This document shows, piece by piece, positions 1,800 to 28,040 of a stretch of DNA of 64,000 bases. The notes beneath the pieces are model-generated. The model searched no databases, was not told the origin of the DNA, and saw only the letters and a list, made by a program, of their open reading frames with translations. How positions within the stretch are numbered: the first letter of the stretch is position 1; every line of letters starts with the position of its first letter. The DNA is from Spirochaetaceae bacterium (lineage in GTDB: Bacteria; Spirochaetota; Spirochaetia; CADAEX01): assembly GCA_009780675.1 (NCBI GenBank), contig WQZP01000012.1, positions 3,769 to 67,768 of the forward strand, given 5' to 3'. A program made the position numbers and the translations under genes.

Positions 1800-2242
1800 A
1801 AGAAGTAAAAGAAAACCAAATATCTGATAAGGATATTTATTTTGAAAAATTATCAGAAGATTCTTTTCCTGACCTTACCCCGCTTATTGATGTAGTTTTT
1901 ATGCTGATAATATTTTTTCTTCTTACACCAACTTTGATGGGAGAAAGAAGTTTGTCCATAAATCTTCCAGCATCATCTGCAGGGGAAATATTGCAGGCAG
2001 AAAATATAGTAATTGAAATCGATAAAGAAAATAATATTTTTTTTCAAAATACTAAAACAGATTTTGGACAAATAGAAATTATTTTAAGAGATATAATAGC
2101 AACAGCCAACAACCCTCTTCCGGAAATAATCATAAGAAGTGATGAGGAGTGTAGCTTTGGAACAGTTGTCCGGTTAATGGAGATAATACAAAATAGCGGG
2201 TATGATGCAATATCATTTGCTGTAAGGGACAAGTCGTTATAA
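1796..2242 (+). CDS. exbD: ExbD/TolR biopolymer transport protein
   Basis: One N-terminal TM (DLTPLIDVVFMLIIFFLL) followed by a periplasmic domain. Translationally coupled to exbB. Confidence 0.8.
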   Translation: MKEVKENQISDKDIYFEKLSEDSFPDLTPLIDVVFMLIIFFLLTPTLMGERSLSINLPASSAGEILQAENIVIEIDKENNIFFQNTKTDFGQIEIILRDIIATANNPLPEIIIRSDEECSFGTVVRLMEIIQNSGYDAISFAVRDKSL

Positions 2243-2429
2243 GACGCTATATTTTGCTGTTAAAGTATTCCTTGTGTTATGCAATCATAAAAATTGTTAC
2301 ACAGCCACCGCCATGGACAGCGGTGGTTTTTATCTTTATTATTTTAAATCATTTCCCAAAAATATTAGAAAAAGAAACTCCTGCCATAATACAACATTGA
2401 TTTGACAGTTTGTCCGGGTATAAGCGTAA

Positions 2430-3848
2430 TTACCTAGCTCTGATTGAAAAATCTCTCCACACATTCGCTCCTTGATACGCACTTACAGAATCTGCTGGGA
2501 CAATCAGCGTAACATCACTTCTTTCTACACGGTCAAATACATTGGCTTGAATTGCCTGAGGTCTGGCTGCCATATTGGTTATTTCAACCAAATTTGTACA
2601 CCGCCAAAAAACATTGGTTCCAATGGCATTTACCCGGCTGCCTATGACCACATATTCCAGACTCGCAACTCCACTGAACAGACTATTCGGTATACGCCTT
2701 ACATTTTCACCAAAAACAACCCTTTCCAGAACCGGGCAGTCGGCAAAATGGTTGTTTGCGCCACCAACATCCGCAGCATTGCGGGCATTAAAATAAACTG
2801 TCTGCAGGCGGGAAGAACGTCTGAAAGCAGCTTGGCCGATGGAAGTAATATTTTCGGGAATGGTAAGGGTAGTTATACTGGTATTAAAAAATGCCTGTGG
2901 TCCTATTTCACTTAAGCCGCTGCCAAGTGTAATTGATCTTACACTAATGTTATTGTAAAATGCATTTTGTCTGATTGTATGTACAGAGTCCGGTATGACA
3001 ATTTCTGTCAAATTCCTGCATCCGGAAAAAGCATATCTGTCTATTTGAGTAACACTGTTTCCAATAGTAATAGAAGTCAAACCGGATTGTCCGATAAAAA
3101 GAGCAGAAGGAATACGTTGAACATTATTTCCAAAAATAACCGTTCTTAGAGCATTCAGTCCACTAAACGGATGAAGCACGCCAAATGCAGGATCAAAACC
3201 GCTCATGTTTTCTGCATTAAAATAAATAGTCGTTAAATTGCCTGAGTCTGAAAAAACATTTGCCCCCATAGAAGATATACCTTCAGGGATAGTGACCACT
3301 GTTAAACCGTTGTTTCGAAATGCTCCGTTAGGCAGTTCGGTGATTCCCCTGCCAATATGTAAGGAAGTTAACTGCACACAATTTTCAAATGCGGCGGGAC
3401 CCAAAGTTCTTACAGTATCAGGAATAACAAGGTTTGTTAAACCGCTTCTGGTAAACGCAAAAGAACCTATTGCAATAACGCTGGCCGGAATATCGACAGA
3501 ACTTAATCTGGAACACTGGGCAAAAGCATAATTGCCAATATGAGTTACGGTATTTCCTATACTTACCGATGTCATGGCAGAATGACCAAAGAATGCATAT
3601 CCACCAATATTTGTAACACCGTTTTCAATTACAACTCTATTTATACTGCCAACATGGCTCTGCCAAGGGCGGTTGCTTGTTGAACCCCAATCATCAGGCA
3701 TCTGACCATTGCCGGAAATTGTTAATATGCCATTTGAAAATGTCCAACCAAGGGAAGTCCCAAAAGACCCTTGAGTTTGGGAATTTGCCGAGATTACGAT
3801 TAAGCAAAATATAGCTAATGTCAAAATAATACATTTATTATTTTTCAT
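2430..3848 (-). CDS. secreted BspA-type leucine-rich-repeat surface protein
   Basis: N-terminal signal peptide (MKNNKCIILTLAIFCLIVISANSQ). Repeated ~23-aa units (IGxYAFxxCxxLTSVxIPxSVTxIG) typical of LRR_5/BspA proteins. Confidence 0.75.
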   Translation of the reverse strand: MKNNKCIILTLAIFCLIVISANSQTQGSFGTSLGWTFSNGILTISGNGQMPDDWGSTSNRPWQSHVGSINRVVIENGVTNIGGYAFFGHSAMTSVSIGNTVTHIGNYAFAQCSRLSSVDIPASVIAIGSFAFTRSGLTNLVIPDTVRTLGPAAFENCVQLTSLHIGRGITELPNGAFRNNGLTVVTIPEGISSMGANVFSDSGNLTTIYFNAENMSGFDPAFGVLHPFSGLNALRTVIFGNNVQRIPSALFIGQSGLTSITIGNSVTQIDRYAFSGCRNLTEIVIPDSVHTIRQNAFYNNISVRSITLGSGLSEIGPQAFFNTSITTLTIPENITSIGQAAFRRSSRLQTVYFNARNAADVGGANNHFADCPVLERVVFGENVRRIPNSLFSGVASLEYVVIGSRVNAIGTNVFWRCTNLVEITNMAARPQAIQANVFDRVERSDVTLIVPADSVSAYQGANVWRDFSIRAR

Positions 3849-3901
3849 ATTGCACTCCTTTAGCTTATTATATATTTTTCTTGATTTCTGTCAATAAATC
3901 A

Positions 3902-4112
3902 CAATGGCTCACGTTAAATCAAACCATGAGAGGAGAAAAATCTCAAGTACCGGAAATAATCATAAAAAATGATGAGGAGTGTAGCTTTGGAACAGTTGTC
4001 CGGTTAATGGAGATAATCCAAAATAGCGGGTATGATGCAATATCATTTGCTGTAAGGGAAAAATCGTTATAAGATGCTATATTTTACTGTTAAAGTATTC
4101 CTTTGTTACTTG
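3902..4112. repeat. 48-bp leader (3902-3949) followed by a duplicated copy of the exbD 3' end and downstream sequence
   Basis: 3950-4112 is a near-identical direct repeat of 2119-2280 (the last ~40 codons of exbD plus ~40 bp downstream), with a few mismatches. ORF 3881-4072 translates to the ExbD C-terminus. Confidence 0.85.
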
Positions 4113-4295
4113 AAGCTGTTTATGTAATATCTTATTCCACAGATTCCCTTTGATTTCACCAGTCCCTTTGGAAATTTTGGTAAATCTTGGCATCCCATCA
4201 GCATTGTCTTTTCTATAGAAATAATGGTCTGTATTTTTATATAATTCCCAGCCATCCCGCTCACAAAATCGTTTTAAATCTTTCCACGACGGCAT
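4077..4295 (-). CDS. HicA/YcfA-family toxin (mRNA interferase-like)
   Basis: 72 aa. DGWELYKNTDHYFYRK...GTGEIKGNLWNKILHKQL fits the YcfA/HicA pattern (GWxxxxxxxH...G.LxxILKQ). Overlaps the upstream gene by 22 nt. Confidence 0.55.
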   Translation of the reverse strand: MPSWKDLKRFCERDGWELYKNTDHYFYRKDNADGMPRFTKISKGTGEIKGNLWNKILHKQLQVTKEYFNSKI

Positions 4296-4696
4296 TTTAT
4301 TGAACCTTCTATCTTGTCAACATCGCCAAGAATCAGGGCTTTGAAAACATATGGAATATGAAGCTTTCTGTTACCTCTGGACCAATAAGCGAATTCATTG
4401 TAATAATCTTCTGAATATTCAAGGATAGCGCTGGCTAACCTGGATATAGCGCTTTGCATATCAGGAGCGTTCTCTACTAAGTCAATTTCATCAAGAGATA
4501 TAGTGACAGAGCCGTCATCTTCAATCAGGGTTTCAGCATGAAAAGAGTAAGCAGATAATATGTTTTCCAAAACATTCATATCGGAAAGAAACAAATAGTC
4601 TCTTGTTCTCTTGATGAATGCTGGTTTTTCTCTGATAACTGACTCAACAAGCGAACTCCACTCATTTCTTGCTGTTGTAGCGTTAATAGTATGCAT
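4274..4696 (-). CDS. putative antitoxin with a Phd/YefM-like N-terminus and HicB-like remainder
   Basis: N-terminal INATTARNEWSSLVESVIREKPAFIKRTRDYLFLSDMNV resembles the Phd/YefM antitoxin N-terminus. Operon-coupled with the HicA-like gene. Confidence 0.4.
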   Translation of the reverse strand: MHTINATTARNEWSSLVESVIREKPAFIKRTRDYLFLSDMNVLENILSAYSFHAETLIEDDGSVTISLDEIDLVENAPDMQSAISRLASAILEYSEDYYNEFAYWSRGNRKLHIPYVFKALILGDVDKIEGSIKCRRGKI

Positions 4697-4834
4697 ATCA
4701 ATTACTCCTCATCACATACTATTGCACAATATGTACACATTGTCAACAATGTCCTTTTTCAGTTTTTTTGTAGCGCGCCATGATATATTATTTTATCATG
4801 ACACAGGCCGAAGGGCTAGGTTATTTTATACTCG

Positions 4835-4975
4835 TTATCTGCTATATTGCTTTTTATTCGATAATTCTTTCATTAAATTACTTGCTGCCATAGACGATTC
4901 CAGTATATCTTTAATGTAATTATAACCTGAGTCAATATCCTCATCAAATACTTTGGAAAAAACCAATTCGAGCAT
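4835..4975 (-). pseudogene. truncated ParE/RelE-family toxin (46 aa, N-terminal half only)
   Basis: ATG at 4975 lies 2 nt after the antitoxin stop. MLELVFSKVFDEDIDSGYNYIKDILESSMAASNLMKELSNKKQYSR* matches the ParE N-terminus, then a TAA stop. No continuation in any frame. Confidence 0.5.
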
Positions 4976-4977
4976 TA

Positions 4978-5241
4978 TCAGTTTCCAATGTATTTATGAA
5001 TTTTCTTGAACACTTTTTCCTTAGAAATTGTTTCACCATTTTTAATTTGATTCATGCCTAATTGAAGGGATTTATACAATTCAATTTTTCCAACTAATTC
5101 CTCATATACTTGAATACTCATTACTGCTAGATCCCCCTGTCCATTTTTAGTAATAAATATTGGCTCTCTATTATTATGACAAAAATCTGAAATTTCTCCA
5201 TAATTATTCCGTAAGTCTGCACTTTTCCTTATAACTGGCAT
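4978..5241 (-). CDS. Phd/YefM-family antitoxin
   Basis: 87 aa. ADLRNNYGEISDFC..NREPIFITKNGQGDLAVMSIQVYEEL matches the Phd/YefM signature. Confidence 0.65.
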   Translation of the reverse strand: MPVIRKSADLRNNYGEISDFCHNNREPIFITKNGQGDLAVMSIQVYEELVGKIELYKSLQLGMNQIKNGETISKEKVFKKIHKYIGN

Positions 5242-5308
5242 TCATTACCTCCTTACTTAATTTAACAATAATAATATATCATTATTTTGATATATTATCA
5301 ATAGTTCG

Positions 5309-5489
5309 CAATGGCTCACGTTAAATCAAACCATGAGAGGAGAAAAATCTCAAGTACCGGAAATAATCATAAGAAGTGATATCTTTGCCTACAGCCGAAC
5401 CGCTCGCACTCCGCCATTCGGGTAACTGCGACACAGGAATCCATGTTTAGCAATTCCGGACATTATCTGTATTGCACGCTCCAGCTACC
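5309..5489. repeat. composite repeat: 48-bp leader + 25 bp of the exbD 3' fragment (5309-5380) fused to an orphan LRR 3'-UTR element (5381-5489)
   Basis: 5309-5380 is identical to 3902-3973. The junction ..aagtgat|atctttgcctacagcc.. is the same as at 7318-7336. 5381-5489 matches 7325-7433, including the last 8 codons (GSWSVQYR*) of an LRR gene, with no gene body. Confidence 0.85.
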
Positions 5490-5556
5490 TATTCATGCAT
5501 GGCGTTGTTATTAAAAATATTTTTATAGAAAAATTTAATAGCGCTAATAACAAGAT

Positions 5557-5685
5557 TTATGTAAGAGGCTGAGTACTCATTACAAAACTATGATGTTCCA
5601 TGATATGAAAAAGAACTTGAGCGGGTTTTGATGAAGGAAACAGTAGAGCAGAAAAAATGATATTTGTATCTGTCATTACCTTCAT
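5557..5685 (-). pseudogene. possible truncated PIN-domain toxin (42 aa)
   Basis: MKVMTDTNIIFSALLFPSSKPAQVLFHIMEHHSFVMSTQPLT* resembles a PIN N-terminus (TDTNii.sall). It ends where the repeat block begins. Confidence 0.3.
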
Positions 5686-5775
5686 TTGCGGTTTTCCCTA
5701 GAATACCTTACTTCATCAACAAGCTGTTGAATATCTTCTTCTTTAATTTTTTATATTGTTTCATTTGTCATATTG

Positions 5776-6150
5776 TCATCCAATCTCTACAACTTCACCT
5801 ATGGAAAACAACAAATTATATAATTCAATATTTTCATCAAAATCAACTAAATCAAATTCATTTTCTAAAATATTGTTTAATTTTGAGTATGTTCTTATGT
5901 AATTTTTTGGAGATAAACCCATAACTCCAATGTCAATATCTGATAATTCGGTATACTTTCCTGTTGCTAATGAACCAAAAAGGAAAATTGAAGTGCAGCC
6001 TTCTTCCTTTAAACACATAGTAGCCTTTTCAATATCCTGTCGATATTTTTCAGGAATTTCTGGTAAAGTCATAATAAATAATATATACTTATTTGTGATG
6101 GTGTCAAGTGCATTTTTCATTAATTTGGAGATTTTGGATAATTCTAGCAA
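5776..6150 (-). CDS. minimal nucleotidyltransferase (MNT), pol-beta superfamily; antitoxin-like
   Basis: IFLFGSLATGKYTELSDIDIGV contains the GS..G...D.D nucleotidyltransferase motif. Confidence 0.65.
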   Translation of the reverse strand: MLELSKISKLMKNALDTITNKYILFIMTLPEIPEKYRQDIEKATMCLKEEGCTSIFLFGSLATGKYTELSDIDIGVMGLSPKNYIRTYSKLNNILENEFDLVDFDENIELYNLLFSIGEVVEIG

Positions 6151-6387
6151 AATTTACAAAATTTTTCAGCTCAATTGCATATAACGTATTATATGCGAAC
6201 TTCGTATAATCTTCATCCGAAGATATAACGCGAAATAAAGGTTCGTGTTATATCAAAAACAAATGTAAAGGGAAAATCACACAATGTAAAGAATCTTGCA
6301 AACTTGGGCTCTGCATAATTTTTCATTTTTTTATCTTACAGCAGACCACGCGGGCTTTTGCCTACGTTACTGAGTAAGAAAAATAAA

Positions 6388-6696
6388 TTAACCTGGCGGA
6401 TTTTTAAATTTTACAGCAGGCCGTTGCAAAAATTCTAACTTGAGGGTCATATTCATGGCAGAAGCTAGCCGCTTTAATGTCTGCAAGGTGGGGTTGCCAT
6501 CGCCTGCTTCCAGTTTGCTTATATCACTTTGGGCTATACCTGTGCGTTCGGAAAGCTGCTTCTGGGTAAGTCCTGCATTTTTACGAGCATCTATAATGGC
6601 TTGGACAATCGCAAACTCTGGCTCTAATGCATCCCATTCAGCGCGAATTTCAGGGTTCTTCAATTGTTCATCAAGAAATTTTTTCCACTCGCTCAT
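6388..6696 (-). CDS. HTH XRE-family antitoxin (HigA-like)
   Basis: GLTQKQLSERTGIAQSDISKLEAG is a helix-turn-helix. Overlaps the upstream toxin gene by 4 nt. Confidence 0.7.
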   Translation of the reverse strand: MSEWKKFLDEQLKNPEIRAEWDALEPEFAIVQAIIDARKNAGLTQKQLSERTGIAQSDISKLEAGDGNPTLQTLKRLASAMNMTLKLEFLQRPAVKFKNPPG

Positions 6697-7058
6697 TTCC
6701 GACTCTCCTTTCTACTTAAATATTCTGTACGATACCTTTTTGCTCTTTCAATTTCAGATGACGGCGTCTTTTGCATTTTTTTGATAAAGCCGTGTGTTAG
6801 AATGGCTTTCCGCCCCACAATAAAGAAGTATAGAATACGGGATATATCCGCACCTACCTGCGCACGAAGCTCAAAAATACCACTATCTAGATGCTTTGAA
6901 TAAGGCTCTCTCAACTCTGAACCATTGGTTTCCAAAAAATCAACAACCCTAAGCATTTTAGCTCTCATTTTTGGAGCTAATCTCAAGATAAAGTCTTTAG
7001 CGGGTTCTGTCTCATCGGCCTTATCATAAAATTTGATTTCAAATTTTAAATCCCGCAC
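6693..7058 (-). CDS. HigB/RelE-like toxin (Gp49/DUF891-type addiction module killer)
   Basis: 121 aa. ILYFFIVGRKAILTHGFIKKMQKTPSSEIERAKRYRTEYL is typical of the HigB-like Gp49 family. Toxin-first gene order. Confidence 0.7.
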   Translation of the reverse strand: MRDLKFEIKFYDKADETEPAKDFILRLAPKMRAKMLRVVDFLETNGSELREPYSKHLDSGIFELRAQVGADISRILYFFIVGRKAILTHGFIKKMQKTPSSEIERAKRYRTEYLSRKESRK

Positions 7059-7311
7059 AATATTTTGCCTTTACCAGTGCATATACTTACAATATAGGAT
7101 ATATCCGATATTGTCAAGATGCTGTATTTATCAAACTTTTTCATGAGGAAGAAATTTACTTTTCTCATTTTTATGTTTCCCTTTGTTTCTGTATAATAGT
7201 TGCCAATAAAAGCGTTGCCGCCAGTAGCTATACTTTTATAACTGAATAAAAAGAGGTTTTGCTTCAAAAAGAGATTTTAATTACTGTTTTTGCAAAAAAT
7301 TTGAGTTTTGT

Positions 7312-7433
7312 CATAATAAGTGATATCTTTGCCTACAGCCGAACCGCCCGCACTCCGCCATTCGGGTAACTGCGACACAGAAATCCATGCGCAGCGATTC
7401 CGGACATTATCTGTATTGTACGCTCCAGCTACC
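7312..7433. repeat. GC-rich LRR 3'-UTR element, copy 2, preceded by a 'cataataagtgat' remnant of the exbD-fragment junction
   Basis: Aligns with 5368-5489 and 8421-8513. Confidence 0.8.
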
Positions 7434-8315
7434 ATTTAATGTATAAGCTCCTGCTCTACGCTCTTGATAGTTATAGAATTCAACAAATTCTTGGTTGAAA
7501 GCATTATTTTCTATCTTGATGTTTGCTCCAATAATAATGCTGGTTAATGGAGGCAACCCTAAAGCTCTAAATGCATTATCCTCGATAATAGTCACGCTAT
7601 CAGGAATAACAACGCTGGTCAGTTGATTCCAACTAAATGCACCTTTTTCGATAATAGTCACGTTGTCGGGTATAATAATGCTGGTCAGTTGATTTCCAGT
7701 AAATGCATCCTCTTCGATAATAGTCACGCTGTCTGGTATAACAACACTGGTCAATCGATTATCAGCAAATGCACCAGTCCTGATAATAGTCACGTTGTCG
7801 GGTATAATAACGCTAGTCAGCCGATTAGCAGAAAATGCATACCTCCCGATAGTAGTCACGCTGCTGGGGATAACAACGCTGGCCAATCGGTTACGGCGAA
7901 ATGCCCACTTCCCGATAATAGTCACGCTGTCAGGTATAACAACACTGGTCAATCGATTATCAGCAAATGCACCATTCCCGATAATAGTCACGCTGTCTGG
8001 TATAACAACACTGGTCAATCGATTATCAGCAAATGCACCAGTCCTGATAATAGTCACGCTGTCAGGTATAACAACACTGGTCAGTCGATTACCAAAAAAT
8101 GCATCCTTCCCGATTGCAGTAACAGGCAAGTTTTGTATTTGGGGAGGAATTCGCACATCTGTATTTCTTCCATTATATTTGGTAATTTCTATTGCAGTAC
8201 CGCCCTCAATAACCCGCACAGTAAAATTTTCTTCAGGTTCAAATTGTGGCTGGGTATATGCTAAAAATGCTGTCAACAGTATCAGAATAATTCCAAAAAT
8301 AATTTTTCTGTTCAT
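7407..8315 (-). CDS. secreted leucine-rich-repeat protein; member of a tandem paralog pair
   Basis: Signal peptide MNRKIIFGIILILLTAFLAYTQ. About 9 tandem 23-aa (69-bp) repeats NRLTSVVIPDSVTIIxxxAFxx. Confidence 0.8.
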   Translation of the reverse strand: MNRKIIFGIILILLTAFLAYTQPQFEPEENFTVRVIEGGTAIEITKYNGRNTDVRIPPQIQNLPVTAIGKDAFFGNRLTSVVIPDSVTIIRTGAFADNRLTSVVIPDSVTIIGNGAFADNRLTSVVIPDSVTIIGKWAFRRNRLASVVIPSSVTTIGRYAFSANRLTSVIIPDNVTIIRTGAFADNRLTSVVIPDSVTIIEEDAFTGNQLTSIIIPDNVTIIEKGAFSWNQLTSVVIPDSVTIIEDNAFRALGLPPLTSIIIGANIKIENNAFNQEFVEFYNYQERRAGAYTLNGSWSVQYR

Positions 8316-8420
8316 AAAACCCTCTTTATTTATTGCAATATAAATCCTTATATTTCAAAACAACGTATTGTTCATAATAAAATCCAACTGCAGTCAAATA
8401 GCTCGCGATTCGTCTTTCAG

Positions 8421-8513
8421 CACCGCCCGCACTCCGCCATTCGGGTAGCTGCGGCACAGGAATCCATGCTCAGCGATTCCGGACCCTACTTAAATTGCAC
8501 GCTCCAGCTACCA
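8421..8513. repeat. GC-rich LRR 3'-UTR element, copy 3
   Basis: accgcccgcactccgccattcgggtagctgcggcacaggaatccatgctcagcgattccgga... Conserved with the copies at 5381 and 7325. Confidence 0.8.
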
Positions 8514-9517
8514 TTTAATGTGTAAGTTCCTGCTCTACGCCCCTGATAGTTATAGAATTCAACAAATCCTTGGTCGAAAGCATTATTTGCTATCTTGATG
8601 TTTGCTCCAATAATAATGCTGGTTAGTCGATTCCTACTAAATGCATTATCCTCGATAATGCTCACGCTATCTGGAATAATAACACTGGTTAGTTGATTCC
8701 AACTAAATGCACCCTCTTCGATAATAGTCACGCTATCAGAAATAATAACGCTGGTTAATTGGTTCCAAAAAAATGCATTCCTCCCAATAGTAGTCACGCT
8801 GTCAGGTATAACAACACTGCTCAGGTAATTCCAACTGAATGCATTCTCCCCGATAACAGTCACACTGTCGGGTATAACAACACTGGTCAATCGGTTAACA
8901 GAAAATGCACTATCCATGATAGTAGTCACACTGTCGGATATAATAACGCTGCTCAGGTAATTCCAACTGAATGCATTCTTCCCGATAACAGTCACGCTGT
9001 CGGGTATAACAACGCTGGTCAATCGGTTAACAAAAAATGCACTATCCCTGATAATAGTCACGCTGTCAGGTATAACAACGCTGCTCAGGTAATTCCAACT
9101 GAATGCATCCTTCCCGATAGTAGTCACGTTGTTGGGAATAACAACGCTGGTCAATCGATTACGAAGAAATGCATACCTCCCGATAATAGTCACGTTGTCG
9201 GGTATAACAACGCTGGTCAGTCGATTATCAGCAAATGCACTATCCCTGATAATAGTCACGCTATCGGGTATAACAACACTGGTCAGCCGATTACCAAAAA
9301 ATGCATCCTTCCCGATTACAGTAACAGGCAGATTTTGTATTTGGGGAGGAATTCGCACATCTGTATTTCTTCCATTATATTTGGTAACTTCTATTGCAGT
9401 ACCACCCTCAATAACCCGCACAGTAAAATTTTCCTCAGGCTCAAATTGTGATTGGGTATATGCGAAAGATGCTGTAAACAGTATCAAAATAATTCCAAAA
9501 ATAATTTTTCTGTTCAT
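8486..9517 (-). CDS. secreted leucine-rich-repeat protein; paralog of 7407-8315
   Basis: Near-identical N-terminal 90 aa and C-terminal 40 aa to the neighbour, with about 11 repeat units. The upstream region (9560-9607) also duplicates 8362-8408. Confidence 0.8.
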   Translation of the reverse strand: MNRKIIFGIILILFTASFAYTQSQFEPEENFTVRVIEGGTAIEVTKYNGRNTDVRIPPQIQNLPVTVIGKDAFFGNRLTSVVIPDSVTIIRDSAFADNRLTSVVIPDNVTIIGRYAFLRNRLTSVVIPNNVTTIGKDAFSWNYLSSVVIPDSVTIIRDSAFFVNRLTSVVIPDSVTVIGKNAFSWNYLSSVIISDSVTTIMDSAFSVNRLTSVVIPDSVTVIGENAFSWNYLSSVVIPDSVTTIGRNAFFWNQLTSVIISDSVTIIEEGAFSWNQLTSVIIPDSVSIIEDNAFSRNRLTSIIIGANIKIANNAFDQGFVEFYNYQGRRAGTYTLNGSWSVQFK

Positions 9518-9611
9518 AAAAACCCTCTTTATTTATTGCTATATAAATCCTTATCTTTCAAAATAACGTACTGTTCATAATAAAATTCAACTGCAGTCAA
9601 AGAGCTCGCGT

Positions 9612-10658
9612 TTATCTTTTTGGCAGCAGTTGCGAAAGGTAAGTGGATAAAATATCTTTGTATTCTTTTTCTATTTTTTGCTCTGCTGATACAAACACAC
9701 GGTTTTCTGCTCCTGCAACTGTGGGATGCCCTTCTCGAATATTAAAAGTGAATGGCAATAATACCTCTCGCGTGACAGTATCAGTAAGGTTTGCGCTTAA
9801 TTCCATAAGAATAAATCTGTGCGGATTATCAGGAAAATCAACAGGCGAAAGCCATACATTTACTCGAAGCGCATAACGCGAATTACTTCCTCCACTTCTA
9901 AATCCAAAATCAGTAAAAGTTTTCGCGAAAGCATCCTGAATTCTTCCGGCTCTATCGTTGTTAACAACTATATTGACCGGAATGGCTCTGGTTATGTTTC
10001 GCGCTTCCAGCCGGTATTCGTCGCCTCTTCTAACCCCTGCGGGTGTTCTTGCGCCCAGCATATTCAATAAATTAGCATAAGTGATATTTATATCTGCCAC
10101 TGTTGCGGCGAATTGAAATCTGGAAAAACCTTCCAGAGAATTTCTTTCAGCCTGACTCATGGTAGTAAGATTTCTAATCATTTCCAGATTGGCTAATATC
10201 ATATCTGTGTACAAGCGAATGGTTTTTGCCCTTTCCATGACTGCAACAGCATAAAAAATATTGTGCCGTGTGTCCTGCCATACATCTTTTATTTCCGCTC
10301 CAATAAGATTATCCATCGAAACTGATGTTCTTATTGTATTTTGCATGGCGATATTATCGACCCAGCCTATGGTAATGCCATCTCTTACAGCTTCAAGATA
10401 TGTATTTACTATTATTTGATCTGCCTGTATGGATTGACCAAAAAAAGCAGCCAGATTTGCAATAGCGTTTCTTTCTGCCATTTCGCGGTCTGTAGCATGG
10501 CCCACTGCAGCAATGAATTGCGATCTGCTGTAAACAGAATCAACAGAATCGACCCATGCAGGTTTTCCGCTGTTGCCAGGCGAACTTGCGCAGGAGAAAA
10601 ACAACAGCATCAGCGGAAAAAAGAAAAAATTATTCGCTAACTTGAAGAGGTCTTTCAT
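9612..10658 (-). CDS. lipoprotein with an N-terminal LPP20-like domain
   Basis: Probable start is the ATG at 10658 (MKDLFKLANNFFFFPLMLLFFSCASS lipobox). KPAWVDSVDSVYSRSQFIAAVGHATDREMAERNAIANLAAFFGQSI fits the LPP20/FlgP-type fold. Confidence 0.5.
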   Translation of the reverse strand: MKDLFKLANNFFFFPLMLLFFSCASSPGNSGKPAWVDSVDSVYSRSQFIAAVGHATDREMAERNAIANLAAFFGQSIQADQIIVNTYLEAVRDGITIGWVDNIAMQNTIRTSVSMDNLIGAEIKDVWQDTRHNIFYAVAVMERAKTIRLYTDMILANLEMIRNLTTMSQAERNSLEGFSRFQFAATVADINITYANLLNMLGARTPAGVRRGDEYRLEARNITRAIPVNIVVNNDRAGRIQDAFAKTFTDFGFRSGGSNSRYALRVNVWLSPVDFPDNPHRFILMELSANLTDTVTREVLLPFTFNIREGHPTVAGAENRVFVSAEQKIEKEYKDILSTYLSQLLPKR

Positions 10659-25087: not shown

Positions 25088-25723
25088 TTAATTAAGAGAA
25101 AAATTGACTGCGATCCTGAGGACATCTGCTGTTGGGCGTCCCATGTAGCTTGCAGGCGCAAATCTTGCTCTTCTTACACATCTTATTGCTGCTCTATCCA
25201 AAATATCATAATTGCTTGAAGTAATAATTTCTGTTTTGAAAACTCTTCCGGATGAGTCTATGCTTACATCGATCAGCACTGTTCCTTCCAGCCCTCTCCT
25301 TACAGCATTAGCAGGGTAAACAGGTATAAGTTCCGACAACAAATAGGCTTTCCTGAAAAATCCTGTTCCATAACTCCCCTGCTGTATTGATTCTATATTG
25401 CTTTCAAAATCTCCCTGATATTTTTTTTCATTGGCATTGTTGTCGCTGTTGCTATCGTTATTTGCGCTGCTTTCAATACTTTCGCGAATATTTTTTTCAA
25501 CGCTGCTCTCTGCCCGAAACACACTTTGCGACAAACTACCTGGCGCAGCAGCGCTGAAATTTTGGTTAAGTGAAACTCTTATAACCCCTTCCTGACTGCC
25601 TTGTGCCTGCAAAGAAGTTTTTCCAGCAGGCGATAACACAAAAACAGACAGAAGGGTAATAAGAAATACATGAAACAATACAGAAAATAAATAATATTTT
25701 CCGCTAGTAAGTAAATGCCACAC
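25088..25723 (-). CDS. tonB: energy transducer TonB (C-terminal domain)
   Basis: YPANAVRRGLEGTVLIDVSIDSSGRV..RFAPA is a TonB C-terminal domain. N-terminal TM. Confidence 0.7.
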   Translation of the reverse strand: MWHLLTSGKYYLFSVLFHVFLITLLSVFVLSPAGKTSLQAQGSQEGVIRVSLNQNFSAAAPGSLSQSVFRAESSVEKNIRESIESSANNDSNSDNNANEKKYQGDFESNIESIQQGSYGTGFFRKAYLLSELIPVYPANAVRRGLEGTVLIDVSIDSSGRVFKTEIITSSNYDILDRAAIRCVRRARFAPASYMGRPTADVLRIAVNFSLN

Positions 25724-27725
25724 CTAACATGACCTCTCTTCCATTGCCTGGATAATAACTGGCCCAATGCACAAGCTGGGCATACTCTTTATCAGTAATA
25801 TTTTTTACTTTTCCAAAAACAGTAAGAAAACTGCGGCCCACAGGCAAGGTTAAATTTGCCCCTATATTGCATAAAAGATATCCATCAATTTTATCAAAAT
25901 TGTTTGATGTATCTCCTCCACCATAAAAAGAAGCTGAGTAGCTTATTTCGCTATACAACCTCAACATATTAAAAAATGAAAATTCAGGGATAACTGCAAA
26001 TCTGTGAACTGGGACAATAGGAATTTGGTTCCCTTTATCCTCCCCTTCTCTGAATTCTGCGATTGTAAAATTATAGGTCCCTGTTAAAGAAAAATATTCT
26101 ACAGGAGAAAAAGAAACAAAAGACTCTATTCCATAGCGGATTGTCTTATCAAGATTTTCATTTGAAAAAGTTGCATTATTAAATGAAATTTCATCATTCA
26201 TCAAAAGCAGAAACAAGTTTACCCCTAAAGCAACAAGACTTCCAAATCTATATTCAACTCCCAGATCAAAAGAGTGACCACGCTCCGGATTAAGGTCTTT
26301 AATAAAACCATCATTGCCTATTCCGTGATACATTATTAATTCATCTGTAAAAGGAAATCTAAAAACCCTGTCGTAGCGCAAATATACTTTGCCGTTATCA
26401 GAAAACATAAAATTAAAGCCAGTTCCAAAGTTAAATACTAAATAGTTTTTATTGTCATTTACATCAGGAAGATCGCCACTATAGAAAACATGGTCATATC
26501 TTCCTGACAGAGAAAACAAAAGCCTCTCTGTAACAGGCAATTCTCCTCTTGAAAAAAACGCATAATTTGTTTTAGTGATTTTACCGCTGTAATATCTATC
26601 TTCACGATTTGCATCGTTATATCTTTTTACACTTAGATCATCCATTATAAAATCAAACCCTGCTGTTATTTTAAGTTCTCTTAAAAGCACAGGAAATTCT
26701 CCTGTAAAAGATACTCCTGCTGCTATTGAGTCAATATTGGTATTTGTGAAAGCTTGCATACCCCAAAATGATATATCTGCTTTTGTATCTCTTGAGTTAT
26801 ACCCTGCTGTTAAAAAAAGAAAATGATTTTCTGTAAACTCCCATCTACCTTGCGCCTGAATAAATAAAGATTCTATTTCTGCCTTATCATATTTATTGCT
26901 TGCCTGCCTGGGATTATTTTTAAATTCTTCTTCTGTAAGACCACCGGGCATTTCATACATTTGATTCCCGGATGAAAGAAAAAGAGAAGCAGAGCCTCTT
27001 TCTGCAAATGATGTTGAAATATTTGCGCTAAAATTAGTATTTTCTGTCCCTGTTCTGTCTCGCCACCCATCAGTCCTGCTATCTACAGCAGATACAGAAA
27101 CCAATAAAACATCGCTCCCTGCAGATGCGGTAATCCTCTTTTCAAGAAAAGAGTTGCTTCCCCCCATAACTTCTGTACTTAATGAAACCCCTTCACGCGG
27201 TTTTGCAGGAATAATATTTATTACAGCAGCAACAGCATAATCTCCATATAACGAGCTTGCTCCGCCCCTTACAACTTCTATTTTTTCAATTCCACCTGCG
27301 CCAGGTATTGCAAGCCAATTAATCCCAGCCATATCAGGATTATTCAACTTTATTCCATCAAAAAGGATAAGGATCCTCCCCTGCCCCCCTTCTGTAAAGC
27401 CCCTTGCAGAAGGTTGAGCAAGAGCTGGTAAGCCGTTAAACGACCTCATGTCTATTCCAGCAAACAAAGCAAGCGCTTCCGGAACAGTTCTGTTCCTGAG
27501 TTGTTCCGCTGTTATGGTTATAACAGAAGCAGGGATCTGGTTATCTGGCTGAGGGCTTCGCGTAGCAGTTACTGAAACCATAATATCAGCTTCTCTTGCT
27601 GAATCCGCTGCAGGCTGCGAATCACTGGTAGCGACGCTAAATTCCTCGCTTGGGATTGCAGCCTCTTCGGCCCAACCTGCTGCTACCACAAGCAGACACA
27701 TTAAAACTGTAAGAAAAATTTTCAT
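25704..27725 (-). CDS. btuB: TonB-dependent outer-membrane receptor (BtuB-like; riboswitch-controlled)
   Basis: Start is the ATG at 27725 (AAGGAG ribosome-binding site, signal peptide MKIFLTVLMCLLVVAAGWA). Plug domain with TonB box DIMVSVTATR. Long beta-barrel with a terminal aromatic residue. Confidence 0.8.
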   Translation of the reverse strand: MKIFLTVLMCLLVVAAGWAEEAAIPSEEFSVATSDSQPAADSAREADIMVSVTATRSPQPDNQIPASVITITAEQLRNRTVPEALALFAGIDMRSFNGLPALAQPSARGFTEGGQGRILILFDGIKLNNPDMAGINWLAIPGAGGIEKIEVVRGGASSLYGDYAVAAVINIIPAKPREGVSLSTEVMGGSNSFLEKRITASAGSDVLLVSVSAVDSRTDGWRDRTGTENTNFSANISTSFAERGSASLFLSSGNQMYEMPGGLTEEEFKNNPRQASNKYDKAEIESLFIQAQGRWEFTENHFLFLTAGYNSRDTKADISFWGMQAFTNTNIDSIAAGVSFTGEFPVLLRELKITAGFDFIMDDLSVKRYNDANREDRYYSGKITKTNYAFFSRGELPVTERLLFSLSGRYDHVFYSGDLPDVNDNKNYLVFNFGTGFNFMFSDNGKVYLRYDRVFRFPFTDELIMYHGIGNDGFIKDLNPERGHSFDLGVEYRFGSLVALGVNLFLLLMNDEISFNNATFSNENLDKTIRYGIESFVSFSPVEYFSLTGTYNFTIAEFREGEDKGNQIPIVPVHRFAVIPEFSFFNMLRLYSEISYSASFYGGGDTSNNFDKIDGYLLCNIGANLTLPVGRSFLTVFGKVKNITDKEYAQLVHWASYYPGNGREVMLGVAFTY

Positions 27726-27854
27726 AAGAAACTCCTTTTTCTTCTGAAAAAGAAGCCAGAGATAGGCAAGTAATCTAACAAGACAAAAAAATAATAGCCT
27801 ATTCCAACTCAATCCTCGAAGTTGTTATCACCCCAACTAAAGGGGTCTTACTGG

Positions 27855-28040
27855 TTTAAGTATTCTGACTTATGGCTCTGGTATAATTGAATTATACCGC
27901 CGTACCTTTTCCTTCCCAGTTACTCCATTAAAAAACAGAATCACCAGTGGTTGCCAATACATAGTCTCTTTGTATAGGCATAAAAGGTTTGTGGCCAATT
28001 ACAGCAGCGGGACTGCGGAGGAATTTCACCTCTCTTCCAT
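27855..28040 (-). ncRNA. cobalamin (B12) riboswitch
   Basis: Minus strand reads GGTGAAATTCCTCCGCAGTCCCGCTGCTGTAA...CCACTGGTG...ACTGGGAAGG, containing the cobalamin-riboswitch core and B12 box. It is followed by alternative CAACT/AGTTG hairpins and a T-run before the btuB ribosome-binding site. Confidence 0.7.

What the first reader, a model, noticed from the sequence alone, without database searches (positions are those of the whole stretch)
5381..8513. Conserved GC-rich ~110-bp element in the 3' UTR of LRR genes, present three times including one orphan copy
The element ...ccgaaccgcccgcactccgccattcgggtaactgcgacacag(g/a)aatccatg.gcagcgattccggac... is about 60% GC in an AT-rich genome. It follows the stop of both tandem LRR paralogs, at 7325-7433 and 8421-8513, and also occurs without a gene body at 5381-5489, which retains only the last 8 codons (GSWSVQYR*). 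It could be any of the following:
- a recombination or gene-conversion hotspot that moves LRR cassettes;
- a conserved 3' structured RNA (stability element or terminator);
- a small RNA derived from the 3' UTR.
Basis: seen in the sequence. Interest (0 to 1): 0.55.

Follow-up and report, generated by a model that had tools for sequence, protein, structure and literature searches.

The report
Locally duplicated LRR gene tail
The GC-rich element is real but occurs only at this one locus, where it is the downstream flank of a surface LRR gene copied twice by local rearrangement; it shows no RNA-structure signal, though its core mutates like a tiny 24-codon gene.

Summary
There are three copies of a 100-134 bp segment with a core of about 62% GC in a 38% GC window. 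Each sits just 3' of a BspA-type LRR reading frame on the minus strand; copy 1 keeps only GSWSVQYR*.

The copies are products of local rearrangement, not a dispersed family.
- Copies 2 and 3 belong to a ~1.1-1.2 kb tandem duplication (promoter + LRR + flank). Its junction lies in a microhomology with the tail of the upstream LPP20 gene.
- Copies 1 and 2 are 134-bp direct repeats (91%) bracketing a toxin-antitoxin block (HigBA, nucleotidyltransferase, truncated PIN).
- The whole region is a hypervariable island between exbD and LPP20, and the 3' end of exbD is also repeated there.

No copy was found elsewhere in the 74-kb contig, in relatives, or in the genome, metagenome, viral, plasmid and phage collections. 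There is no Rfam hit, terminator, folding-energy signal, attC boxes or nearby recombinase.

One unexpected signal remains. All six single-base differences in the core fall on third codon positions of one minus-strand frame, a 24-codon ORF whose ATG overlaps the LRR stop (ATAATG). In that frame dN/dS is about 0.1, and dS is similar to the LRR gene's. The peptide has no homologue, its codon usage is atypical, and copy 3 lacks a start codon.

The verdict is an ordinary segmental duplication with a possible orphan small ORF.

The parts
7311..7444 (-). Element copy 2 (the full copy). On the minus strand it comprises the last ~13 codons of LRR1, the GC-rich core, the distal part ...GGCTGTAGGCAAAGATA, and 14 nt (atcacttattatga) that match exbD 13/14.
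5367..5500 (-). Element copy 1 (the 'orphan'). It covers the same 134 nt at 91% identity to copy 2, keeps only GSWSVQYR* of an LRR gene, and abuts a 24-nt exbD fragment plus segment B.
8405..8523 (-). Element copy 3. It comprises the LRR2 tail and the core up to ...GCGGGCGGT (8421-8523). It then switches (8405-8420) into a remnant of the LPP20 tail plus the 95-nt upstream region of LRR1. This switch is the tandem-duplication junction.
7333..7407 (-). Candidate small ORF in copy 2: MSGIAAHGFLCRSYPNGGVRAVRL*. Its ATG overlaps the LRR1 stop (cagATAATGtcc).
5389..5463 (-). Candidate small ORF in copy 1: MSGIAKHGFLCRSYPNGGVRAVRL*.
8421..8483 (-). The same frame in copy 3 (SGIAEHGFLCRSYPNGGVRAV), but without a start codon (GGG in place of ATG, with TAA two codons upstream).
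7407..8315 (-). LRR1, a BspA-type LRR_5 protein of 302 aa with a signal peptide.
8486..9517 (-). LRR2, a BspA-type LRR_5 protein of 343 aa and the tandem paralogue of LRR1.
8316..8410 (-). The 95-nt upstream region of LRR1, 92.6% identical to 9519-9613 upstream of LRR2. It is part of the tandem-duplication unit.
5501..7310 (-). Block bracketed by copies 1 and 2. It holds a truncated PIN gene (5557-5685), a nucleotidyltransferase (5776-6150), an HTH antitoxin (6388-6696), a Gp49/HigB-type toxin (6693-7058) and its promoter region X (7060-7279).
5357..5380 (+). A 24-nt fragment identical to exbD 2120-2143, lying directly next to copy 1. Its last 14 nt are part of the copy 1/copy 2 repeat.
3950..4108 (+). 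A duplicate (95%) of the exbD 3' end (2120-2279). Together with segment B (3866-3949 = 5272-5356), it brackets the other modules of the island.

Best explanation
The element is the 3' flank of one LRR gene lineage. It was multiplied in place by two local rearrangements inside a hypervariable island between exbD and an LPP20 lipoprotein gene. It is not a dispersed repeat, and no RNA element could be demonstrated.

Step 1 (shown). A tandem duplication of [promoter - LRR - flank] produced copies 2 and 3. The junction lies where the distal end of the element (GGCTGTAGGCAAAGATA) resembles the LPP20 gene tail (TGCTGCCAAAAAGATAA).

Step 2 (the repeat is shown; the mechanism is inferred). A 134-bp stretch (14 nt of exbD origin + element + last ~13 LRR codons) became a direct repeat bracketing a toxin-antitoxin block. 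This most likely happened by illegitimate or homology-facilitated recombination between differently arranged alleles, an event that also truncated the PIN gene next to copy 1.

Today the copies act only as stretches of homology that allow further duplication or deletion of the LRR and TA modules.

The GC-rich core itself most likely is, or recently was, a 24-codon reading frame in the -1 frame relative to the LRR gene, with its start overlapping the LRR stop (ATAATG), which suggests translational coupling. This part is inferred from the substitution pattern only. My sub-confidences are about 0.85 for the duplication history and about 0.4 for the small ORF.
For: Only three copies exist, all within 3.2 kb.

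No copy was found anywhere else:
- the rest of the 74-kb contig;
- five related loci fetched through LPP20 homologues, and the loci of three LRR homologues;
- GTDB genomes, where the one 20-mer hit in Phyllobacterium has no flanking similarity;
- metagenome and viral contigs;
- plasmids and phages.

Copy 3 diverges from copy 2 exactly where the LPP20-tail/upstream-region homology starts.

The core identity between copies 2 and 3 (93.7%) equals that of the co-duplicated upstream region (92.6%) and 5' CDS (94.1%). The element is therefore as old as the duplication and is not specially conserved.

In relative L009, the X-HigBA block follows the LPP20 gene directly. That places the LRR units and the element as extra material in this genome.

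Evidence for the small ORF:
- All six single-site differences are third positions of one open minus-strand frame.
- Random placement reproduces this in 0.2-0.3% of trials.
- Peptide identity is 100/96/95% in this frame, against 84/80% and 83/74% in the other two.
- dN/dS is 0.08-0.16 with dS 0.28, close to the LRR genes' dS of 0.18-0.24. In the other two frames dN exceeds dS in all but one of six comparisons.
Against: The rest of the genome could not be searched, because only one 74-kb contig of this organism is accessible. Distant copies therefore cannot be excluded.

Against the small ORF:
- It rests on nine substitutions in three copies, and the frame was noticed post hoc.
- Copy 3 has no start codon, and copy 1 has no upstream gene to couple to. 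At most one copy is obviously translatable, yet all three look constrained.
- Codon usage is atypical: CAI 0.54 is in the lowest 3% of gene windows, and GC3 is 0.58 against 0.34.
- There is no Shine-Dalgarno sequence at a useful distance.
- No protein among 5.8 billion shares three 5-mers with the peptide.
- The only hit in the exhaustive search is an artefact of summing over nine repeats.

The high GC content remains unexplained.
Confidence: 0.5

Rival explanations
1. Neutral passenger. The element is non-functional DNA of foreign or unknown origin that happened to lie 3' of the LRR gene and was copied with it. On this view the codon-like pattern is chance.
For: Identity equals that of the neighbouring co-duplicated DNA. 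There is no homologue, no structure and no motif. Copy 3 lacks a start codon. Codon usage is atypical.
Against: The third-position pattern has a probability of about 0.002-0.003 under random placement. Divergence between copies 2 and 3 in the core (4 differences in 63 nt) is well below the 11-15 expected from the LRR synonymous rate.
Confidence: 0.3
2. Dedicated recombination or attachment site. The element is recognised by a recombinase acting in trans, or is a preferred target for insertion of TA/LRR cassettes, with duplication of the target.
For: Copies 1 and 2 bracket a TA block as direct repeats. The same X-HigBA block is bracketed in relative L009 by a 66-nt duplicate of the LPP20 tail. 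The exbD tails bracket two other modules here.
Against: The bracketing repeats differ in each case (exbD tail, LPP20 tail, LRR tail plus element), so they are local sequence, not an element-borne site. The element has no inverted repeats or core boxes. There is no integrase, transposase or reverse transcriptase among the ORFs of the window. The truncated PIN gene at the copy-1 junction points to an illegitimate join.
Confidence: 0.1
3. Structured 3'-UTR RNA: a stability element, a processing site or a 3'-UTR-derived sRNA of the LRR mRNA.
For: A GC-rich island in an AT-rich genome lies directly after a stop codon. RNAalifold draws a three-way junction on the mRNA strand (26 pairs, -21.6 kcal/mol), and four one-sided changes keep pairing.
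Against: MFE z-scores run from -0.9 to +1.6, and the three copies fold differently. No pair on the mRNA strand changed on both sides; the single such pair is in the weak plus-strand fold. The 5-bp CTGCG/CGCAG stem is destroyed in copies 1 and 3. There is no terminator-like site and no Rfam family, even at E up to 10.
Confidence: 0.08
4. Integron attC site, with the island being a cassette array lacking an integrase (CALIN).
For: The island is an array of small, mostly same-strand modules rich in TA pairs, with repeats between the modules.
Against: None of the copies, on either strand, contains an R''/R' box (RYYYAAC / GTTRRRY). There is no imperfect palindrome. There is no intI in the 74-kb contig. 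Two termite-gut Treponema isolates were reported to lack integrons (PMC3607928).
Confidence: 0.02

Closest known systems
Tandem/segmental duplication of surface-protein paralogues (BspA-type LRR families in Treponema and relatives)
   Same: The promoter, gene and 3' flank are copied as one unit. The ends are conserved and the number of internal 66-bp repeats varies. The junction lies at a short microhomology.
   Different: A third, gene-less copy brackets a TA block. The flank is compositionally foreign: 62% GC against 40% for the LRR gene.
Partial duplications of gene 3' ends left by homology-facilitated illegitimate recombination or Campbell-type integration (from my own knowledge of natural transformation in Acinetobacter and Streptococcus pneumoniae)
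   Same: Direct repeats of 66-160 bp made of local sequence flank the inserted modules. One junction truncates a resident gene (PIN).
   Different: The mechanism was not observed here. No donor or circular form is known, and competence of this organism is unknown.
Integron attC sites / sedentary chromosomal integron arrays
   Same: There are repeated sequences between small cassettes, many of them TA modules, mostly on one strand.
   Different: There are no R''/L''-L'/R' boxes or palindrome and no IntI. The repeats are tails of neighbouring genes rather than element-borne sites.
REP/BIME- or MITE-like intergenic repeats
   Same: It is short, GC-rich and repeated, and lies just after stop codons.
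   Different: It is not palindromic, has only three copies at one locus, and none was found elsewhere.
Translationally coupled small ORFs with overlapping stop/start (TAATG)
   Same: The ATG overlaps the stop of the upstream gene in two copies. The frame is open, and changes are synonymous-only except for one variable codon.
   Different: It has only 24 codons, no homologue and atypical codon usage, and the start is lost in one copy. Expression has not been tested.

Membership tests
Integron attC site | R'' (RYYYAAC) and R' (GTTRRRY) core boxes at the two ends | tested here: not met
   No box was found in any copy on either strand.
Integron attC site | Imperfect palindrome (L''/L') forming a hairpin in single-stranded DNA | tested here: not met
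   The only inverted repeats are 8-12 nt and differ between copies. Folds are no better than shuffles.
Integron attC site | IntI integrase and attI nearby (or several attC sites, as in a CALIN) | tested here: not met
   No integrase was found among the ORFs of the window or contig.
Dispersed intergenic repeat (REP/MITE-like) | Many copies scattered over the genome, independent of one gene family | tested here: inconclusive
   There are three copies within 3.2 kb and none in the other ~70 kb of the contig.
Dispersed intergenic repeat (REP/MITE-like) | Terminal inverted repeats or a palindromic stem | tested here: not met
Intrinsic terminator | GC-rich hairpin followed by a T run | tested here: not met
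   There are 0 terminator-like sites in 5200-9700 on both strands.
Known structured RNA family (Rfam 15) | Covariance-model match at or near the gathering score | tested here: not met
   No hit was found at gathering score. At E up to 10 there was only noise, at 15-21 bits against gathering scores of 40-70.
Conserved structured RNA (novel) | Stability above shuffles and compensatory base-pair changes | tested here: inconclusive
   z-scores run from -0.9 to +1.6. No pair changed on both sides on the minus (mRNA) strand; one did in the weak plus-strand fold, broken in a third copy. Three near-identical copies give little power.
Diversity-generating retroelement (VR/TR with a GC-rich IMH) | A reverse transcriptase nearby, and a template repeat differing from the VR at adenines over ~100 bp of the coding 3' end | tested here: not met
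   No reverse transcriptase was found in the window. The orphan copy shares only ~40 nt of coding sequence, and the differences are not adenine-specific.
Protein-coding small ORF | An open frame with start and stop in every copy | tested here: inconclusive
   Copies 1 and 2 have ATG...TAG over 24 codons. In copy 3 the frame is open but there is no start.
Protein-coding small ORF | A substitution pattern of purifying selection (dN/dS well below 1) in that frame only | tested here: met
   dN/dS is 0.05-0.16 in this frame; in the other two frames dN exceeds dS in all but one of six comparisons. The permutation p is about 0.002-0.003. The test rests on only nine substitutions.
Protein-coding small ORF | Homologues, or evidence of translation | tested here: not met
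   No homologue was found. Translation cannot be tested with these tools.
Attachment site of an integrative element | The same core sequence at every junction, with a cognate recombinase | tested here: not met
   The bracketing repeats differ between modules and genomes. No recombinase gene was found.

The most novel reading that the evidence does not exclude
The exbD-LPP20 island is a non-integron cassette array. In it, promoter-carrying TA and LRR modules are inserted next to the 3' ends of genes, with duplication of 66-160 bp of the target, and no recombinase is encoded in cis. The GC-rich element would be one such duplicated target. The same X-HigBA module would have used two different targets: the LRR tail plus element here, and the LPP20 tail in relative L009.
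Probability: 0.12. Interest if true: 0.6.

Novelty: new member of a known kind. Interest (0 to 1): 0.3.

Why it matters
As it stands, the finding explains an apparent 'conserved element' as a by-product of local duplication in a plastic island of a termite-gut spirochaete, so it should not be counted as a new RNA or repeat family.

Two things would matter if confirmed:
- an orphan 24-residue peptide co-expressed with BspA-type surface LRR proteins;
- a recurring pattern, seen in two genomes for the same HigBA module, of TA modules bracketed by long duplicates of the 3' end of the adjacent gene. This pattern bears on how small accessory modules spread without their own recombinase.

Tried and rejected
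Searches for further copies or homologues:
- Public scans with the 20-mer core found one chance hit in genome contigs, none in metagenome contigs and none in viral contigs. The metagenome collection evidently lacks the source sample, because JGI contigs L003 and L005 do carry the element.
- A back-translated degenerate pattern of FLCRSYPNGGV found nothing in metagenome or viral contigs.
- Plasmid and phage BLAST found nothing.
- The exhaustive phmmer search gave one hit, P0241, whose E-value comes from summing nine identical weak repeats. I rejected it.

LRR homologues and relatives:
- The LRR homologue search was dominated by repeat number and did not return orthologues.
- The 3' flanks of P0062, P0017 and P0071 lack the element.
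- Loci found through LPP20 homologues (L008-L013) lack it too.
- The JGI and Logan contigs of the same organism are identical in the element, so they add no variation.

Other tests:
- ARAGORN found no tRNA or tmRNA.
- I rejected the attC, DGR, terminator and Rfam readings.
- I rejected the idea that the element derives from the 3' coding end of the LPP20 gene, because only the last ~17 nt are similar.
- The plus-strand frame that shares the third-position phase contains a TAA/TAG stop in all copies, so I did not prefer it (frames).
Full report
**Observation.**
A 32-nt core matches at 5405, 7349 and 8428, with none expected by chance. Repeat finding gives 5367-5500, 7311-7444 and 8390/8421-8523.
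- The two LRR genes are BspA-type LRR_5 proteins encoded on the minus strand: 7407-8315 and 8486-9517. The element therefore lies immediately 3' of their stop codons.
- Copy 1 retains only the last eight codons, GSWSVQYR*.
- The 65-nt core is 61.5% GC. The window is 38% GC, and the LRR genes are 40% GC with GC3 of 0.34-0.38, like the other genes. The flank is therefore compositionally distinct from the gene it follows.

**Source and distribution.**
- The window is part of a 74-kb metagenomic contig (ENA ERZ27257297). Identical contigs exist in JGI 3300010369 and in a Logan assembly. NCBI labels the organism a Spirochaetaceae bacterium MAG, and its relatives are Treponema sp..
- The rest of the contig has no further copy.
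- The 20-mer core gave one hit in 185,579 species-representative genomes, in Phyllobacterium, with no flanking similarity. It gave none in metagenome or viral contigs, and plasmids and phages gave nothing.
- The metagenome collection evidently does not hold the source sample, so these negatives are weaker than they look.

**How the three copies arose.**
- Copies 2 and 3 belong to a tandem duplication unit made of a 95-nt upstream region, the LRR gene and the flank. Upstream-region identity is 92.6%, the first 270 nt of CDS 94.1%, and the core of the element 93.7%. The element is thus exactly as diverged as the DNA duplicated with it.
- Copy 3 follows copy 2 up to ...GCGGGCGGT. It then continues as GCTGAAAGACGAATCGCGAGC..., which aligns with the end of the upstream LPP20 gene and the sequence after it (GCTGCCAAAAAGATAAACGCGAGC...). 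The duplication junction therefore lies in a microhomology between the distal end of the element and the LPP20 tail.
- Copies 1 and 2 are 134-bp direct repeats (91%) that bracket positions 5501-7310. This block holds a truncated PIN gene, a nucleotidyltransferase, an HTH antitoxin, a Gp49/HigB toxin and its promoter region X.
- Both copies include, at their distal end, 14 nt that match exbD (tcataaKaagtgat). In copy 1 this runs on into a perfect 24-nt exbD fragment, followed by segment B.

**The island.**
- The region from 2274 to 9613, between exbD (plus strand) and the LPP20 gene (minus strand), is a mosaic of minus-strand modules. These are a BspA-like gene; a HicA-like/PHD-like pair with Phd; the block above; and LRR1 and LRR2.
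- The last 160 nt of exbD are repeated at 3950-4108 (95%), and their first 24 nt recur at 5357-5380. Each repeat is preceded by segment B (87% between its two copies), which carries the promoter of the adjacent operon.
- In relative L009 (LPP20 73% identical), the LPP20 gene is followed after 25 nt by the same X-HigBA block (76-83% nucleotide identity). Next come a 66-nt duplicate (97%) of the LPP20 3' tail and then the sequence that directly follows LPP20 in our window.
- L008 has the same LPP20 protein as L009 but lacks the second tail. L011 has a different LRR gene after LPP20, with other repeats.
- The locus is therefore a hot spot of gene-content variation, where rearrangements leave partial duplicates of whatever lies at the junction.
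- No integrase, transposase or reverse transcriptase is encoded in the window.
- The truncated PIN gene next to copy 1 suggests an illegitimate join rather than a site-specific event.

**What the element is not.**
- It has no Rfam match, even at E up to 10, and no tRNA or tmRNA similarity.
- There is no terminator-like site, no attC boxes and no significant inverted repeat.
- Folding energies on either strand are indistinguishable from shuffles (z from -0.9 to +1.6), and the three copies adopt different minimum-energy folds.
- RNAalifold draws a three-way junction on the mRNA strand, but with no compensatory change.
- LRR homologues from other samples with the same C-terminal tail motif have unrelated 3' flanks. 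The element is therefore not a feature of the LRR family.

**The one positive signal.**
- On the minus strand, in the -1 frame relative to the LRR gene, the core reads as follows:
  - copy 2: MSGIAAHGFLCRSYPNGGVRAVRL*;
  - copy 1: MSGIAKHGFLCRSYPNGGVRAVRL*;
  - copy 3: ..GSGIAEHGFLCRSYPNGGVRAV..
- In copies 1 and 2 the ATG overlaps the LRR stop (ATAATG).
- All six single-nucleotide differences in the core are third positions and synonymous in this frame. The only other variation is one codon (AAA/GCG/GAG).
- Random placement of six such changes is fully synonymous in some frame in 0.2-0.3% of trials.
- Nei-Gojobori estimates give dS 0.28 and dN 0.02-0.045 in this frame. In the other two frames dN exceeds dS in all but one of six comparisons, and the LRR genes have dS 0.18-0.24.
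- Several facts count against a working gene:
  - Copy 3 has no start.
  - Copy 1 has no gene upstream.
  - CAI is in the lowest 3% of gene windows.
  - No homologue exists in 5.8 billion proteins.
  - In 1.84 billion representatives, the single hit, P0241, is an artefact of nine summed repeats.
- I rate a present or recent coding function at about 0.4.

**Verdict.**
It is best explained as a gene flank multiplied by ordinary local duplication and recombination in a plastic island, not as a new repeat or RNA family. The candidate 24-codon ORF and the recurrent tail duplications around TA modules are the points worth following if more genomes of this clade become available.

Noticed in passing
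window 2120-2279, 3950-4108, 5357-5380; segment B at 3866-3949 and 5272-5356: The 3' end of exbD is repeated: 160 nt at 95%, plus a 24-nt third copy. Each repeat is preceded by a shared ~85-109-nt segment that carries the promoter of the adjacent minus-strand operon, while the cargo between repeats differs (a BspA-like gene versus HicA-like/PHD-like/Phd).
   Followed up: partly
L009 9203-9268 and 10183-10248: In a related Treponema contig, the same X-HigBA module is bracketed by a 66-nt, 97% duplicate of the LPP20 gene tail. Sister contig L008 lacks the second copy. HigB is truncated in both (73 and 88 aa against 121 aa here).
   Followed up: partly
L011 11390-11420, 12275-12425, 13177-13336: A hairpin-containing repeat (gaaagaaccgNaggttctt...) occurs upstream of an LRR gene. 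As 150-160-nt direct repeats (87%), it also brackets a DUF5615/DUF433 TA pair.
   Followed up: no
L006 1575-1690: Two copies of a hairpin element (agtacgcaaaaggtgcYagRcaccatgagcgtttac) lie downstream of an LRR homologue. They are unrelated to the element studied here.
   Followed up: no
window 27860-28038 (-): A cobalamin riboswitch (46 bits, E 2e-08) lies upstream of a TonB-dependent receptor (25704-27812) and a TonB_C protein (25088-25723).
   Followed up: no
window 7419-7427 versus 8498-8506 (around the LRR stop codons): A dense patch of 6 differences in 9 nt (tacagataatg against tttaagtaggg) changes YR* to FK* and removes the ATG of the candidate small ORF in copy 3. This is far denser than the ~6% divergence around it.
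   Followed up: no
window 5557-5685 (-): A PIN_3 gene is truncated after about 34 residues. It lies ~60 nt upstream of the orphan LRR tail and probably marks an illegitimate recombination junction.
   Followed up: partly
window 5875-6007 versus L005: The JGI contig L005 is identical to the window except for 20 mismatches clustered in the last 130 nt, inside the nucleotidyltransferase gene. This indicates either a second allele or a chimeric contig end.
   Followed up: no
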